Below are positions 5,032-11,000 of a stretch of 64,000 nt of DNA, piece by piece. Origin of the DNA: Zootoca vivipara (Eukaryota); the NCBI RefSeq assembly GCF_963506605.1, contig NC_083284.1, positions 20,522,001-20,586,000 on the forward strand, written 5' to 3'. A program made the position numbers. Within the stretch, counting starts at the first letter, position 1. Each line of letters opens with the position of its first letter.

Positions 5032-8000
5032 TTAAGAAGAAAAGCTTAGTAGAATCAGAGGTCAATGTGATGGAAAGGCAGGATGGCAAAGGCTTTTAAG
5101 ATGAATAAATATTGCCCCCAAATTTCATCTGCACACCTATTATGTCCACCAACACTTTCCCACACTGTCCATCAACAACATATTTGGGTTCCTCACTTGC
5201 ACAGATTTCAATAGGTGGCTGTCTCTAGACATTGCATTGGCAAGTCACCATGTAAATGGGTCTAGGCACCTGTTTTGAATCCTCCAAAAATTTCCCTTAT
5301 ATTATTTTGCTGCCCACCAATAAGAAGGGAAACTTTTGTTAGAGGTTTTTAAGCAGAGGTTGAAAGGATAGTTTAGCTGAGTTTCCTGCAATACAGGGGT
5401 TTGGATTAGTAGACTCTTGGGGTCCCTTCCAACTCTGCAATTCTATGATTATATGACCAGTGTTCATTAAGGAGTATCCTTGGTTTTTGCATGTCCAATT
5501 TCTGCCATGTTCCTGCAGCCCATTCTATGGAGCATGTTCAGAGGAGGGGGACAAGGATGGTGAGAATTTTGGAAACAAAGTCCTATGAGGAACAATTTGA
5601 ATAGCTGGATATGGTTAGTGAAATATACTCGGAGTCAAGAGTGAATTTCATGCTCTTTATTCAGCTCATAGTCATCAAGGAGGAGAAGAGAAGACGAATG
5701 GCTCTTTTCCCAAAACCATCTGCTTATATACATTATTTACACAATGGGCCTTGCGTGATTGGCTACTTCAGGGCTACACCTGTGGGCCAATTATATTGTG
5801 GATTGACTTTTGCCTGCAGCCTGATTGGCTGCTCCTACAGGCCAATCAGGTAGCAGATTCACTTCTGCCAGCCGCCTGATTGGCTGCTCCAGCAGGCCAA
5901 TCAGGTTGCGGATTCACTTCCACCTGGAGTTGGATTGGGTAGCTCCCGCTGATTCTGAATCCTATTGTTCTAGGATTCAGCTCAGTACATAACACCCCTC
6001 CCCTCTAAGTTCCAGTCCTGCCCGGGAAGTTGCATTCGTAGTCCCCAAGGTCTGCTGGCCGCCTCCGTGTGCGTTGTGGCCTGGGGTGTTCCTTGGTCAG
6101 GGGTTCTGGTTCTGGCTCGTGTTCCGAGGCTGCTGGCTGTGCCGGGGATGTCTGGTCTGGCGCCACTGAACCACTAGGTTGTAGCTCTGGTTCCGGTGTC
6201 CTTCCAGCCTCGGGGCGCCCCTCTGTGCCTACTGCTTCTGCTTCCTCTGCCCACCCCTCTCGCTCTACAGGCCTCACTGCCCTGCTGTCCCCTTGGGACC
6301 CCTCTGTCCCGCTCTCCTCCCGGGTTCCTCCTGGGAATCGTCGCCGTATCTGGTCGCAGTGGCGGCGCCAACATTGCCCCCCTTCCGTTAGTACCTCGTA
6401 CGACACGGGACCGGTCACCTTGGTGACTGTGGCGGGTACCCATGCTGGGCCTGCCCCAAAATTCTTTGCATACACTGGGTCCTGGGCCACAAATGTCCGG
6501 GGGTTCCTGCCTTTCCCCACCACTACCTCATCCTGAGCTCTGTCGGGGTGAAGTCGGTCCAGTCTAGTTGCAAGGCGCCGGCCCATTAGTAATTCAGCTG
6601 GGCTCCGGCCCGTCGTTGTGCTTGGGGTGCTGTGCTGTGCTAGAAGAAATGCGGCAAGGCGGTATTCCCAGTCCCCTTGTGTCATGCGGCGGAGGCTGTC
6701 CTTGGTGGTCCGCACCATGCGCTCCGCTTGGCCATTGGTGGCAGGGTGGAATGGTGCTGAGCGGATGTGGCGGATGGCGTTCTGCGCTGTGAAGGTCTGG
6801 AACTCCTCTGACGTGAATGCGGTTCCATTGTCCGAGACGAGGGTGTCAGGGAGCCCGTGGGTCGCAAACAGCTTACGTAGTACCCGGATGGCTGCCGCCG
6901 TAGAAGTGGACGGTACCAGTGCGACCTCCAGCCATTTGGTGTAGGAATCCACCACTATGAAGAATGTTTTTCCCTGGAAGGGGCCAGCGAAGTCCACGTG
7001 CAAGCGTGACCATGGATGTCGGGCGGACTCCCAGGGCTGGACTGGGGCCCTTGGGGGATCCGGGCGGGATTCTTGGCAGGTCTGGCAGTGTTGGACCCAG
7101 GCCTCTATCTCTCTGTCAATCCCCGGCCACCACACATAACTCCTGGCAAGGGCCTTCATCCTCACTACCCCTGGGTGTGTCTCGTGTAGGGCTGTGAGGA
7201 CCCTTTTGCGGAGGGGCTGGGGAACAACAACCCTGCTTCCCCATAACAGGCACCCCTTGTGGGCCGACAGTTCATGTTTGCGGTTTGTGTAGCCAGCGAA
7301 TTCTGGCCCGGGGCTGCTGCTGGGCCATCCTCGCCACACCCAGTCCAGGACCCGGGAGATGACCCTATCTTTTGTGGAATGGTGCGCAACTTCTTGTGCC
7401 TGAATGGGTCGGTCGGGAAGCAGCTCCAGGGTCATAACCTCTTGCGCAGGCGCTGGGTCGGGGCCTGTTTCTGGTAGTGGTAGCCTGCTGAGGGCGTCTG
7501 CGTGGCCCATCGCCTTCCCAGGGCGGTGGATTAGTGCATACTGGTAGCCGGCAAGGAAAATTGACCACCTGAGGACACGTGGAGACAACACTTGGGGGGT
7601 CTGCTTCTCAGGGGCAAACAGGCCAAGCAACGGCTTGTGGTCAGTCACTATGGTAAAGGGCCGCCCGTACAAGAAATCATGGAATTTTTTTACGCCCTTC
7701 ACGATTGCCAGACCCTCCTTGTCAATCTGTGAGTAGTTTCGTTCGGCTGCAGCAAGCGTCTGGGAGAAGTATGCCACCGGCACCTCTCTTCCATCCGGGA
7801 GTTGGTGTCCCAGGACAGCGCCGATGCCATAGGGAGAGGCGTCGCATGCCAGCACCACTGGCAACCTCTCGTCGAAGTGTGCCAAGACCGAGTTCGAGAC
7901 GAGCAAGTCCTTGACTGCCTGGAATGCGGCCCTTTGTCGCTGGCCCCACACCCAAGGGGCCCTTTTATCTAGGAGTCTGTGTAGGGGCTCCGCTACCGCT

Positions 8001-11000
8001 GCCTTATGGGGAAGGAAGGCATGGTAAAAGTTCAATAGTCCCAAGAATGACTGAAGTTCGGGCTTGCTCTTGGGCGCTGGGGCCTCACAAATGGCCCGTA
8101 CCTTGTCACCGGTTGGATGGACCCCTTCTGCGTCCACCTTAAATCCCAGAAAGTCCACCTGCGGCACTCCCAGTAAACACTTTTCCCGCTTCACCTTGAG
8201 GCCCGCCGTCTGGAAACGGTGCAGGACGGAGCGGAGGCGGTCCTCAAATTCCTCTGGTGTGGGCCCGGCGATCAGTACATCATCGAAGAAGGGGGTGACA
8301 CCAGGAATCCCTTTAAGGAGAGAGTCCATTAGATTCTGGAATATGCCTGGTGCCACGCTAACGCCAAATTGCAGCCGCTTTACTCTGAATGCCCCTCTGT
8401 GCGTCACAATCGTCTGAGCCTCTGCTGTGGCTTCGTCCACAGGCAACTGTTGATACGCTTGGGCCAAGTCCAGTTTGCCAAAGATTTTTGACCCAGCCAG
8501 GGTGGCGAGGACATGGCTGACCACTGGCACTGGGTATGCATGGGCCGTGAGAGCCTTGTTTATGGTGCATTTGTAGTCTGCACAGATGCGGACCGAACCG
8601 TTAGGCTTGACGGGTGTGACAATTGGAGTTTCCCAGGGGGCGTTGGGCACCGGCTCCAGCACTCCTTGCTCCACGAGCCGGTCCAATTCCTCGTCTATGC
8701 GGGGTTTCAGGGCAAACGGGACCCGGCGGGCCTTGTGCCTGATGGGTCGTACAGCGGGGTCTAGCTGTAGGGCAATGGGGGGTCCTGTATATCGTCCCAA
8801 TGCCCCATCGAAAACCCCTGGAAACTCTTTGCATATGGCGTCCACGTCCACTTGTAAGCTAGTGCGGTTCACCCCGGTAACGGCTAGCCCCAGAGGTCCA
8901 AACCATGCCAGTCCCAGTAAGCTAACGTAGGGGCCCTTAACTACCAGCAAGTCCAATTGTTGCTTTCGCCCTCGATATTGCACCCTGAAGGTCCCCACCC
9001 CCATAGTAGGGACCTTACGTTTCTGGAAGTCCCGGAGGGTGAATGGGGCCGGCCTTAGTTTGGGACCCCCATTAGGGCACAATTCCCTTAATGTTCGGGC
9101 CGAGATTATGGATAGAGTTGAACCCGTGTCCAGCTCCATGCGGCATGGGGCTCCCTCTATCTGTACCTCTATATAAATTTTCTCTGTGCTGGGATGGGGC
9201 AACTGGAATACCTGGTAGTCCGTGATCTCCGTCGAGTTGCCTTGGTGCATGGTGCCGTGTGACCTGGGGCTCCTGGGTTGGTCATCTGATGCTTGTCGAC
9301 GGGTGAGTCGAGCCCGACACACCCGGGCGATGTGTCCCAATTTTCTGCACTGCCTGCACTCTGCGTTGCGGAAACGACAGGTCCTCCTCTCGTGGTTCTC
9401 CCCGCAGCTTGCACAGTTCCCTCCTTCTCGTCGAGGCTGCTGTGGTGTGTATGCTGCTTGAGTGCGCCGCTGTACTCGGTGTACTTCCTCCCTGTCAGAT
9501 TCGGATTCGTCGGTGAGGTCTTCGTGGTAGACCCTCGGTTGGGATGGCGGAGCCGGTCGTGCCTCTTGCGTTGACCTCTCGGCGGCTTCGGTTGCCAGGG
9601 CTTCCTCCAGAGCAATCTGGAACGTGAGGTCTTTTTTGGCGTAGAGGCGTCGTTGCAACATCTCGTCCCTCAGGCCACCGACGAGGCGGTCACGAAGCAT
9701 GTTCTCCAATTCTGAGAAGTTGCATAACCGGGCGGCTTGGCGGAGGGAGGTCACAAACCCAGTTATGGTTTCCCCCGGGGCTTGCCGTTTTGCGTAGAAG
9801 GCATTTCGGCAAGCTACCACCGAGGGCTGTGGTGAGAAGTGCTCCTTCAGCCGTTCCATTATTGTTTTGTAAGAGACGGTAGCGACATCTCTAGGTGCAA
9901 GGAGAGCCCGGGCGATTTCAAACGTCTCCTCTCCACAGACGCTGAAGAATGTCGCCCTCTTCATGGCATCGTTGGTGACTTCTTTCGCTTGCAGGAGGAA
10001 GTTGAAACGGGCGGCGTACCCTTCCCAGTCTCCTGATGCTGGTTTGAATGGCGAGAAGCTGCTGTCGGTTGCCATTCTGGGTTCCTTGGGTCCTGGAGCT
10101 GAAGCCTGGATGCACGGTGCGATGCAGCGGTGCAGCAGGTGGCGGTGCTGCGGTGCAGTGCGTGGTGGCGGTCAGCTCAGCAGGATCCCATCCTCGTCGC
10201 CAGTGAAATATACTCGGAGTCAAGAGTGAATTTCATGCTCTTTATTCAGCTCATAGTCATCAAGGAGGAGAAGAGAAGACGAATGGCTCTTTTCCCAAAA
10301 CCATCTGCTTATATACATTATTTACACAATGGGCCTTGCGTGATTGGCTACTTCAGGGCTACACCTGTGGGCCAATTATATTGTGGATTGACTTTTGCCT
10401 GCAGCCTGATTGGCTGCTCCTACAGGCCAATCAGGTAGCAGATTCACTTCTGCCAGCCGCCTGATTGGCTGCTCCAGCAGGCCAATCAGGTTGCGGATTC
10501 ACTTCCACCTGGAGTTGGATTGGGTAGCTCCCGCTGATTCTGAATCCTATTGTTCTAGGATTCAGCTCAGTACATAACAGTTAGCTTGCAGAATACATGA
10601 TTAAGGGAAGACAGAATAGCAGCTTTCAAATATCTGAATGGCTGTTATGCAGAAGATGGAGGCGACTGGTTCTCTGTTACTGCATTGGGCAGAACTAGGA
10701 TCAATGGATGGAAACCTCAGGGAAGAAGAAGTTCTATGATTCAATGCAATAACAGCCATACTGTATATCACCGACTTTAATCAATCCACACCTCCAAGCA
10801 AACTTCCTATTAATTTCCTTCCTGTGAGGAGCAGAATAGGTTCGATGGAGAGTTGTGATCCTGCAGGAGGTACCCCAACCAGCACACAGGTGCCATGGCC
10901 CAAATGGCAGGATTTAAGGGCAGTGACCTGTTTGAGACACAAAGAAAAACAACCTCAGAAATGGAGAAAAAGGAACATAAAAGCATATGAACATAACAGC

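What the first reader, a model, noticed from the sequence alone, without database searches (positions are those of the whole stretch)
5614..10584. Very young, apparently transposition-competent Gypsy element inside an ADH gene
Seen in the sequence: two 376-bp LTRs with no visible mismatch, a perfect GTTAG TSD, an 18-nt tRNA-Ser PBS, a PPT directly abutting the stop codon, and an uninterrupted 1356-aa gag-pol ORF. It is CpG-rich compared with its flanks, so little methylation decay has occurred. Established: LTRs are identical at the time of insertion. Inference: the insertion is recent and possibly polymorphic, and the family may still be active in this lizard.
Basis: partly seen in the sequence, partly recalled or inferred. 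Interest (0 to 1): 0.7.

Follow-up and report, generated by a model that had tools for sequence, protein, structure and literature searches.

The report
Young intact Gypsy retrotransposon in lizard ADH intron
This is an ordinary but very well preserved, recently inserted Ty3/Gypsy LTR retrotransposon lying in an intron of an alcohol dehydrogenase gene of the common lizard, one of many near-identical copies of a family that may still be moving.

Summary
Window 5619-10579 (minus strand) is a 4,961-bp LTR retrotransposon.

- **Ends:** two 376-bp LTRs identical at 376 of 376 bases, TG...CA termini, and a 5-bp GTTAG target-site duplication.
- **Priming sites:** an 18-nt primer-binding site one base after the 5' LTR, and a polypurine tract between the stop codon and the 3' LTR.
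- **Coding:** one uninterrupted 1,356-aa gag-pol ORF, ordered capsid-like gag, two zinc knuckles, protease, RT, RNase H, integrase. Every catalytic residue aligned to yeast Ty3 is kept.
- **Host:** Zootoca vivipara. The element lies in intron 7 of an ADH1-like gene, in the same orientation as the gene, 205 bp past exon 7.
- **Other copies:** a second intact copy on another contig differs at 6 of 1,356 residues. Its 90% protein cluster holds 133 sequences.

Three points stayed open.

- The tRNA-Ser identity of the PBS was shown by no tool.
- Mag-lineage membership fits by features but was not tested by phylogeny.
- Polymorphism and activity could not be tested.

The CpG excess applies only to the coding interior (o/e 0.65). 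The LTRs (0.29) match the flanks. Zero LTR differences bound the age only to under about 1.3-8 My.

Verdict: real, ordinary, a new member of a known kind.

The parts
5614..5618 (.). Target-site duplication, left copy (GTTAG on the + strand)
   Evidence: the same 5 bases sit directly outside both LTRs.
5619..5994 (-). 3' LTR in element sense, 376 bp, TG...CA ends. TATATAA at 5724-5730, AATAAA at 5656-5661.
   Evidence: identical to the other LTR at 376 of 376 bases.
5995..6004 (-). Polypurine tract. It fills the whole space between the stop codon and the 3' LTR.
   Evidence: read directly from the sequence.
6005..10075 (-). Single gag-pol ORF, 1,356 aa plus stop, uninterrupted
   Evidence: no internal stop; domains and Ty3 alignment; 1350 of 1356 identical to P0001.
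9560..10027 (-). Capsid-like part of gag (residues 17-172, nine helices)
   Evidence: model pLDDT 94-98 over residues 11-170; the 12 best PDB fold matches are all retroelement or retroviral capsids (PNMA2, dArc1, MLV CA, PEG10, Copia, Ty3, Arc), E 2e-3 to 1.4e-2. Retrotrans_gag E 5.9e-4, 20.5 bits, below the 24.1 cut-off.
9317..9415 (-). Nucleocapsid with two zinc knuckles: residues 221-233 with CX2CX3HX4C spacing, and residues 240-253 with canonical CX2CX4HX4C spacing
   Evidence: motifs; all eight Cys/His columns are invariant in 22 of 22 aligned sequences.
8903..9172 (-). Aspartic protease (residues 302-391), DTG at 316-318
   Evidence: gag-asp_proteas E 1.4e-3, 19.6 bits, below the 28.2 cut-off. 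DTG motif.
8135..8578 (-). Reverse transcriptase core (Pfam RVT_1, residues 500-647). The catalytic box reads FFDD.
   Evidence: E 8.5e-19. (aligned to the Ty3 box). FFDD in 17 of 120 relatives, including all the closest ones; YFDD in 70 of 120.
7544..7948 (-). RNase H (residues 710-844)
   Evidence: E 2.6e-33 and 1.1e-31; the acidic residues are aligned with those of Ty3.
6743..7225 (-). Integrase: zinc-binding H2C2 domain (residues 951-1005) and catalytic core (1021-1111)
   Evidence: E 1.4e-17 and 7e-14. H, H, C, C and D, D, E are all aligned with Ty3.
6008..6565 (-). C-terminal tail (residues 1171-1356). No known domain and no chromodomain.
   Evidence: no Pfam family below E 0.1; 92 of 119 relatives match it, median identity 39%.
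10076..10184 (-). Leader between the PBS and the start codon, with a short GC-rich tandem repeat
   Evidence: repeat rows at 10109-10165.
10185..10202 (-). Primer-binding site, 18 nt. Base 10203 is a one-base spacer.
   Evidence: the + strand string is the 3' end (ending CCA) of small RNAs listed in two tick papers. In one of them the match extends to 20 nt (10183-10202).
10204..10579 (-). 5' LTR in element sense. It holds 55-bp repeats (10386-10531) each with an ATTGG/CCAAT pair, TATATAA at 10309-10315 and AATAAA at 10241-10246.
   Evidence: 4 CCAAT and 3 ATTGG in 376 bp.
10580..10584 (.). Target-site duplication, right copy
10790..10927 (-). Host ADH1-like gene, exon 7 (residues 279-324 of P0143), followed by a GT donor
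   Evidence: 46 of 46 identical. (GT after the exon). (ADH_zinc_N).
4813..4950 (-). Host ADH1-like gene, exon 8 (residues about 324-369 of P0143). Bounds are approximate to a base or two.
3788..3811 (-). Host ADH1-like gene, coding part of exon 9 (last 8 residues)
   Evidence: 8 of 8 identical.

Best explanation
The stretch is a recently integrated, structurally complete, autonomous Ty3/Gypsy (Metaviridae-type) LTR retrotransposon. Its features fit the Mag lineage. It sits in intron 7 of an ADH1-like gene of Zootoca vivipara, in the same transcriptional orientation as the gene.

How such an element works is inferred from the anatomy and from established knowledge of Ty3/Gypsy elements; none of it was tested here.

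1. Transcription starts downstream of the TATA box in the 5' LTR. The U3 part carries repeated CCAAT boxes.
2. The transcript ends after the AATAAA of the 3' LTR.
3. The single ORF is translated into one gag-pol polyprotein, which the protease cuts.
4. The capsid-like gag and the two-knuckle nucleocapsid package the RNA.
5. A host tRNA annealed to the PBS primes minus-strand DNA synthesis, and the PPT primes the plus strand.
6. Integrase inserts the DNA copy and creates the 5-bp duplication.

The LTRs were identical at integration and have not diverged since. At least one other copy in the same genome is 99.6% identical in protein. So the family was moving within roughly the last one to a few million years and may still be.
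For: Shown by tool results:

- The LTRs are identical at 376 of 376 bases, with TG...CA ends and a 5-bp TSD.
- PBS and PPT are in the canonical places.
- The ORF has 1,356 aa with no stop.
- Pfam finds PR, RVT_1, RNase H, Integrase_H2C2 and rve in Gypsy order.
- Ty3 Gag-Pol 7q5b matches at E 2e-88 over residues 438-1166, with the RT, RNase H and integrase catalytic residues aligned and kept.
- The gag model folds as a retroelement capsid.
- Two zinc knuckles are invariant in 22 of 22 aligned sequences.
- P0001, named 'uncharacterized protein K02A2.6-like [Zootoca vivipara]', is 1350 of 1356 identical. It lies on a 123.6-Mb contig, whereas this locus's ADH proteins lie on a 78.3-Mb contig. Its 90% cluster has 133 member sequences.
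- The closest relatives outside the species are lacertids, then geckos.
- The host exons on both sides match ADH1-like P0143.

From passages read in papers:

- Mag-lineage elements in Culex have PBS for tRNA-Ser or tRNA-Leu, mostly 5-bp TSDs, 1-2 ORFs and lengths near 5 kb (PMC3286476).
- Mag nucleocapsids usually carry two CCHC arrays (PMC2577118).
Against: - No tool showed transcription, particles or new insertions, so 'competent' is an inference from intactness.
- The RT box has F where Ty3 and 70 of 120 relatives have Y. The same FFDD is found in all the nearest relatives, so it looks lineage-typical rather than a defect.
- The protease and gag Pfam matches are below the curated cut-offs.
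- The LTRs are CpG-poor like the flanks, so the CpG argument for youth is weak.
- There is no other copy and no solo LTR in the window.
- Mag placement was not tested against reference elements.
Confidence: 0.9

Rival explanations
1. The copy is intact but its family is no longer moving. It is young on a geological scale, but the family is now silenced or extinct, and this insertion is fixed in the species.
For: Zero differences in 376 bp still allow an age of up to about 1.3-8 My at 95% (with assumed rates). No expression or polymorphism data could be reached. The LTR, which holds the promoter, is CpG-poor (o/e 0.29), as expected after long exposure of the family to methylation.
Against: There are two full-length ORFs differing at only 6 of 1,356 residues, neither with a stop. 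The 90% cluster has 133 sequences. A sense-oriented LTR element close to a splice donor is the kind of insertion that selection usually removes with time. That last point is established knowledge from mammalian ERV studies, recalled, with no call behind it.
Confidence: 0.35
2. The insertion is old, and gene conversion between the two LTRs has kept them identical.
For: LTR-LTR conversion is known for endogenous retroviruses (recalled, no call). LTR identity alone cannot exclude it.
Against: The 4-kb ORF is also intact and 99.6% identical to a copy on another contig. The interior keeps CpG o/e 0.65 against 0.3 in the flanks. The TSD is perfect. Conversion between the LTRs would not protect the interior.
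Confidence: 0.04
3. The stretch is a domesticated gag-pol gene (a host gene derived from a Gypsy element) rather than a mobile copy.
For: Public annotation names the relatives as ordinary proteins ('uncharacterized protein K02A2.6-like', 'Gypsy retrotransposon integrase-like protein 1').
Against: Both LTRs, the TSD, PBS and PPT are all intact. The family is multi-copy. The copy lies inside another gene's intron. Domesticated genes lose these features and are single-copy.
Confidence: 0.02
4. The stretch is an assembly artefact: a repeat copy placed wrongly in this intron.
For: With 133 near-identical relatives, the family is the kind of repeat that assemblers can misplace.
Against: A perfect 5-bp duplication of unique intron sequence flanks the element exactly at the LTR ends. 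There is no N run nearby; the only one is at 24842-25008.
Confidence: 0.02

Closest known systems
Second copy of the same family in Zootoca vivipara (P0001, 'uncharacterized protein K02A2.6-like')
   Same: Its ORF has the same length, 1,356 aa, and is identical at 1350 of 1356 residues without gaps. It has the same Pfam domains.
   Different: It lies on a different contig: 123.6 Mb against the 78.3 Mb that carries this ADH cluster. Its LTRs and flanks could not be seen.
Lacertid relatives (Podarcis raffonei P0005, Lacerta agilis P0023)
   Same: They are 86-89% identical over the parts they cover, and P0005 is 95% identical over the RT-RH-IN columns. They share the FFDD RT box.
   Different: They are partial protein models (843 and 786 aa), and no DNA context is available.
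Mag lineage of Ty3/Gypsy (mag of Bombyx mori, Jule of Xiphophorus, SURL of sea urchins; named in passages read in PMC8220671, PMC6238403, PMC3286476 and PMC2577118)
   Same: Length about 5 kb, a single gag-pol ORF, a 5-bp TSD, two zinc knuckles, no chromodomain, no env, and short LTRs. PBS for tRNA-Ser or tRNA-Leu is reported for the lineage.
   Different: No reference Mag sequence could be fetched, so there is no tree with them. The first knuckle has CX2CX3HX4C spacing. The tRNA that matches the PBS was not identified by a tool.
Ty3 of Saccharomyces cerevisiae (PDB 7q5b, 4ol8, 6r24)
   Same: It is the best solved relative, E 2e-88 over RT-RNaseH-IN, with the same domain order and all aligned catalytic residues kept. 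Its capsid fold is among the matches to the gag model (rank 8).
   Different: Ty3 makes Gag and Gag-Pol from two frames; this element has one ORF. The similarity is only distant. The RT box is FFDD here against YLDD in Ty3.

Membership tests
LTR retrotransposon (structural definition) | Two direct long terminal repeats with TG...CA ends | tested here: met
   376 of 376 bases identical; ends TG and CA.
LTR retrotransposon (structural definition) | Short target-site duplication directly outside the LTRs | tested here: met
   GTTAG on both sides.
LTR retrotransposon (structural definition) | PBS next to the 5' LTR and PPT next to the 3' LTR | tested here: met
   The 18-nt PBS starts TGG one base after the 5' LTR. 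A 10-nt purine run abuts the 3' LTR.
Ty3/Gypsy (Metaviridae) | Pol domain order protease - RT - RNase H - integrase | tested here: met
   Pfam positions 302-391, 500-647, 710-844 and 951-1111.
Ty3/Gypsy (Metaviridae) | RT/RNase H/integrase closest to Ty3/Gypsy references | tested here: met
   The best PDB sequence match is Ty3 Gag-Pol, E 2e-88. Next come a chain named 'Enzymatic polyprotein' (8r0s), then spumaretroviral and retroviral enzymes.
Ty3/Gypsy (Metaviridae) | Capsid-like gag with nucleocapsid zinc knuckle(s) | tested here: met
   The 12 best fold matches are all retroelement capsids. There are two knuckles.
Mag lineage of Ty3/Gypsy | Placement with reference Mag elements (mag, Jule, SURL and others) in an RT or pol tree | not tested
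   No tool fetches those references by name, and none appeared as a named hit among the 120 rows or.
Mag lineage of Ty3/Gypsy | Nucleocapsid usually with two CCHC arrays (PMC2577118, passage) | tested here: met
   Residues 221-233 and 240-253, invariant in 22 of 22 sequences. The first array has a one-residue shorter spacer.
Mag lineage of Ty3/Gypsy | PBS complementary to tRNA-Ser or tRNA-Leu (PMC3286476) | tested here: inconclusive
The string is the CCA-ending 3' end of small RNAs in two tick papers, which do not name the tRNA. There is no tRNA gene in the window.
Mag lineage of Ty3/Gypsy | No chromodomain and no env gene | tested here: met
   The integrase tail has no Pfam hit below E 0.1. 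The ORF fills 10075-6005 of the 10203-5995 interior.
Chromoviruses | Chromodomain at the C-terminus of integrase | tested here: not met
   No chromodomain match in residues 1170-1356 at E up to 10.
Errantiviruses / retroviruses | A third, envelope-type ORF | tested here: not met
   Only 10 nt separate the gag-pol stop from the 3' LTR, and only 109 nt separate the PBS from the start codon.

The most novel reading that the evidence does not exclude
The element's squamate-wide Gypsy sub-lineage may have crossed between ticks and squamates.

- A multi-copy family of the cattle tick Rhipicephalus microplus nests inside an otherwise all-squamate group of 52 tips. That group has 58 of 60 bootstraps, and the same group without the tick has 0 of 60.
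- The tick family's best named relatives in a reciprocal search are lacertids and geckos, not other ticks.
- The element's PBS region matches a small RNA of that tick over 20 nt.

On top of that, the Zootoca family may still be moving. In that case this sense-oriented copy, 205 bp past an ADH1-like splice donor and carrying AATAAA signals, would be a segregating allele that changes ADH transcripts.
Probability: 0.2. Interest if true: 0.55.

Novelty: new member of a known kind. Interest (0 to 1): 0.2.

Why it matters
Intact, recently inserted Gypsy elements are expected in squamates. Birds and mammals have lost them (PMC7397244, passage). This copy is therefore no surprise.

Its value is practical. 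It is a clean full-length reference copy of a family that public annotation labels only 'uncharacterized protein K02A2.6-like'. The full-text searches found no paper describing this family in Zootoca.

If the site is polymorphic, it would be a marker of ongoing LTR retrotransposition in a wild lizard. It would also be a natural test of what a sense-oriented intronic LTR element does to a metabolic gene in a tandem ADH array.

The tick-in-squamate clade, seen in passing, would add an LTR element to the tick-reptile transfer story known for BovB LINEs. The BovB story is recalled; it is touched on only in the abstract listings.

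Tried and rejected
- **Six-frame Pfam scan:** I then sent 150 stop-free stretches of at least 55 aa, taken from the 393 such stretches outside the element and covering window 1-25388. The other 243 stretches, from 25309 on, were not scanned by Pfam. That part was covered only by tblastn with four named Zootoca ADH proteins.
- **tRNA and RNA families:** ARAGORN found 0 tRNA genes and Rfam found 0 families at gathering score in the whole window. The PBS isotype could not be checked against a lizard tRNA.
- **Repeats:** no other copy or solo LTR of the element is in the window. 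No inverted repeats of 20 nt or more lie in 4500-11800.
- **The name K02A2.6:** 24 papers hold it, and none in the listing is about its retroelement family. 'K02A2' with 'retrotransposon' and 'elegans' up to 2012 gave 0 papers. Bowen and McDonald 1999 is not held.
- **Explanations rejected:** domesticated gene, assembly artefact and LTR homogenisation (see rivals).
- **Collections not used:** the genome-contig scan covers bacteria and archaea only. The phage, plasmid and E. coli collections are irrelevant to a lizard element. The search of protein representatives and the protein-atlas tools were also not used.

Full report
**1. The observation**

- The repeat finder reports one direct-repeat family in 4500-11800, spaced 4,585 bp apart, and no inverted repeats.
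- Extended base by base, the exact repeat is 5617-5994 / 10202-10579, 378 bp.
- Read on the minus strand, the element begins after CTAAC with TG and each LTR ends in CA. So the LTRs are 10579-10204 (5') and 5994-5619 (3'), 376 bp each and identical at 376 of 376 bases.
- The two further matching bases belong to the target-site duplication on one side and to the spacer plus first PBS base on the other.
- The duplication is GTTAG on the + strand, at 5614-5618 and 10580-10584.
- The PBS (10202-10185) starts TGG one base after the 5' LTR.
- The stop codon of the ORF is 6007-6005. The ten purines 6004-5995 run up to the 3' LTR.
- The ORF listing gives one ORF, 6005-10075, minus strand, 1,356 aa. 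A script confirmed that the only stop is the terminal one.
- The window has one N run, 24842-25008, far from the element. I left it as it is.

**2. Composition**

| Region | GC | CpG o/e |
|---|---|---|
| Interior 5995-10203 | 58.9% | 0.65 (239 CpG) |
| Each LTR | 46.5% | 0.29 (6 CpG) |
| Left flank 1-5613 | 43.1% | 0.30 |
| Right flank 10585-20000 | 43.9% | 0.28 |
| Right flank 10585-64000 | 42.9% | 0.35 |

- ORF GC at codon positions 1, 2 and 3 is 0.64, 0.49 and 0.63. GC3 in ADH exons 5-8 is 0.44.
- The LTRs have not changed at all since integration. So the CpG level reflects the family's own composition rather than decay of this copy.

**3. What the ORF encodes**

- Pfam finds RT_RNaseH_2 (E 2.6e-33), RT_RNaseH (1.1e-31), RVT_1 (8.5e-19), Integrase_H2C2 (1.4e-17) and rve (7e-14).
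- Below the cut-offs it finds two aspartic-protease families at residues 302-391.
- The order is protease, RT, RNase H, integrase, which is the Ty3/Gypsy order.
- Against solved structures the best match is the Ty3 Gag-Pol polyprotein 7q5b, E 2.2e-88, residues 438-1166.
- In the printed alignment, these residues all face the same residues in Ty3:
  - the RT aspartates;
  - the RNase H acidic residues;
  - the integrase H, H, C, C;
  - the integrase D, D, E.
- The protease has DTG at 316-318.
- The RT box reads FFDD where Ty3 has YLDD.
  - Among the 120 relatives, 70 have YFDD, 17 FFDD, 17 YLDD and 16 other or no letters.
  - The FFDD carriers include P0001 and all the nearest lacertid and gecko relatives.
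  - So the variant is typical of the lineage.

**4. Gag**

- Pfam gives only weak hits in residues 1-300: Retrotrans_gag E 5.9e-4, 20.5 bits against a cut-off of 24.1, and zf-CCHC E 0.12.
- I aligned residues 1-300 with 21 named relatives, alignment A1, and predicted a structure from it. Mean pLDDT is 80.3, rising to 94-98 over residues 11-170, with nine helices.
- Foldseek against the PDB found no match at E 0.001 or better. The 12 best, E 2e-3 to 1.4e-2, are all capsids of retroelements or retroviruses: PNMA2, dArc1, MLV CA, PEG10, Copia, Ty3 and Arc.
- There are two zinc knuckles, at residues 221-233 (CX2CX3HX4C spacing) and 240-253 (canonical). Their eight Cys/His columns are invariant in 22 of 22 sequences.
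- The tail, residues 1171-1356, has no domain but is matched by 92 of 119 relatives.

**5. LTR anatomy**

- Tandem Repeats Finder reports a 55-bp unit in 2.2-2.4 copies in each LTR.
- Each LTR has 4 CCAAT and 3 ATTGG, a TATATAA at LTR positions 265-271, and an AATAAA at 334-339.
- Reading these as promoter, enhancer-like repeats and polyadenylation signal is inference.

**6. Host and context**

- Pfam on 150 stop-free stretches from 1-25388 found ADH_N and ADH_zinc_N pieces on the minus strand.
- Exon 6 alone, searched against longer proteins, returned 'alcohol dehydrogenase 1-like isoform X1 [Zootoca vivipara]' (P0143, 377 aa).
- PDB hits to the same exon are class I ADHs.
- tblastn of P0143, P0144, P0145 and P0149 against the window shows four ADH1-like genes, all on the minus strand.
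- An exon-1-like piece at 593-567 belongs to a further gene that leaves the window.
- For the gene around the element, P0143 matches exon by exon:

| Exon | Window coordinates |
|---|---|
| 1 | about 15262 |
| 2 | 14524-14402 |
| 3 | about 13365-13216 |
| 4 | from 12569 |
| 5 | 12373 to about 12150 |
| 6 | 11590-11333 |
| 7 | 10927-10790 (46 of 46 identical) |
| 8 | 4950-4813 |
| 9 | 3811-3788 (8 of 8 identical) |

- I searched the model exon by exon and left out the joined step; no exons were concatenated.
- Intron 7 is 5,839 bp, and 873 bp without the element and one TSD copy.
- The 5' LTR begins 205 bp after the exon-7 GT donor. The 3' LTR ends 663 bp before exon 8.
- Element and gene have the same orientation. 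So both LTR AATAAA signals face the ADH transcript.
- The public 377-aa model includes exons 8 and 9. I could not see whether RNA data support it.

**7. Other copies and relatives**

- The whole-ORF search gave 648 proteins at E 0.001 or better among 7,999 scored candidates, with 120 listed.
- The top row, P0001 (Z. vivipara, 1,356 aa), is identical at 1350 of 1356 residues without gaps. It represents a 90% cluster of 133 member sequences and lies on a 123,560,741-bp contig.
- The ADH proteins of this locus lie on a 78,328,957-bp contig. P0001 is therefore a second intact copy elsewhere in the genome.
- The next relatives are Podarcis raffonei (86% over 913 columns) and Lacerta agilis (87-89%). 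Geckos follow at 70-73%.
- I made a neighbour-joining tree of RT-RH-IN. It used 80 of the 89 named hits, those with one HSP covering at least 85% of the region, plus the window's ORF, over 734 columns. The 31 unnamed hits were left out.
- In that tree the ORF groups as follows:
  - with P0001 in 50 of 50 bootstraps;
  - then with Podarcis in 50 of 50;
  - then with Lacerta in 40 of 50;
  - then with geckos in 50 of 50.
- That pattern fits descent within squamates.

**8. Age**

- With zero differences in 376 bp, the 95% upper bound is 8.0, 4.0, 2.0 and 1.3 My for assumed rates of 0.5, 1, 2 and 3 x 10^-9 per site per year.
- The rates are my assumption and come from no call.
- Six amino-acid differences between two intact copies point to the same order of magnitude (inference).

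**9. The PBS**

- The 18-base + strand string occurs in 2 papers of the library.
  - One is a 22-nt small RNA of Rhipicephalus microplus, which matches window 10183-10202 over 20 nt.
  - The other is a 21-nt small RNA of R. haemaphysaloides, which matches over 18 nt.
- Both end in CCA, as tRNA 3' ends do, but the papers call them novel miRNAs and name no tRNA.
- So the PBS pairs with a CCA-ending RNA 3' end.
- For Mag-lineage elements of Culex, a table and passage state PBS for Ser or Leu, mostly 5-bp TSDs, 1-2 ORFs and lengths near 5 kb (PMC3286476, passages).
- Mag nucleocapsids usually carry two CCHC arrays (PMC2577118, passages).
- Mag is described as a widespread lineage that includes vertebrates (PMC6238403 and PMC8220671, passages).

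**10. Classification and novelty**

- It is a Ty3/Gypsy element without chromodomain or env, with Mag-like features.
- Placement with reference Mag elements was not tested, because none could be fetched or came back as a named hit.
- Literature searches for Zootoca and lacertid LTR elements listed no paper on this family. One search returned 20 papers, of which 15 were listed. One search also returned 20, of which 12 were listed. I saw listings and abstract starts only.
- Supplements were not consulted.
- The element is a new member of a known kind. Its interest lies mainly in its use as a reference copy and as a possible insertion polymorphism.

**11. What stayed unchecked**

- The genome-wide copy count.
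- Solo LTRs.
- Empty or filled alleles.
- Orthologous sites.
- Expression and methylation.

Noticed in passing
window 33605-48962 and 48670-64000: A tandem segmental duplication of about 15 kb at 97.5-98.8% identity. Each unit carries an ADH1-like gene on the minus strand. The unit to its left (31312-33188) matches at 92.8-95.4%.
   Followed up: partly
window 3788-15262, 21044-27300, 33620-38978, 48685-54069, 63723-63878, and 567-593: A tandem array of four ADH1-like genes, all on the minus strand, plus the last coding exon of one more at the right end (63723-63878) and an exon-1-like piece of another at the left end. Proteins P0143, P0144, P0145 and P0149 of Z. vivipara match them to different degrees.
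   Followed up: partly
window 536-1582 and 15206-16252: A 1.07-kb direct repeat at 88.8% identity. It covers exon 1 and the upstream region of the ADH gene that holds the element, and the exon-1-like piece near the window's left end. It probably represents paralogous promoter regions.
   Followed up: no
window 24842-25008: An N run of 167 bases lies inside the second ADH gene, between its exon matches at 25919-26074 and 23817-24686.
   Followed up: no
proteins P0008, P0241-P0243 (Rhipicephalus microplus), compared with the window's ORF 6005-10075: A multi-copy Gypsy family of the cattle tick nests inside an otherwise all-squamate group of this sub-lineage. That group has 58 of 60 bootstraps; the same group without the tick has 0 of 60. 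Its nearest named relatives are lacertids and geckos at 70-73% over RT-RH-IN, against 67% for the soft tick Ornithodoros. This is a lead for old horizontal transfer. It rests on a simple distance tree and on sampling biased by similarity to a lizard query.
   Followed up: partly
window 10183-10202: The PBS and the two bases after it match, over 20 nt, a 22-nt small RNA reported as a 'novel miRNA' of Rhipicephalus microplus. That RNA ends in CCA and looks like a tRNA 3' fragment (PMC9611014, table passage).
   Followed up: partly
proteins P0013, P0020, P0040 (Zootoca vivipara): Z. vivipara holds further, distinct families of the same kind at 52-55% identity to this ORF. One of them has a 90% cluster of 67 members. 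Several Gypsy families therefore have many ORF-bearing copies in this genome.
   Followed up: no
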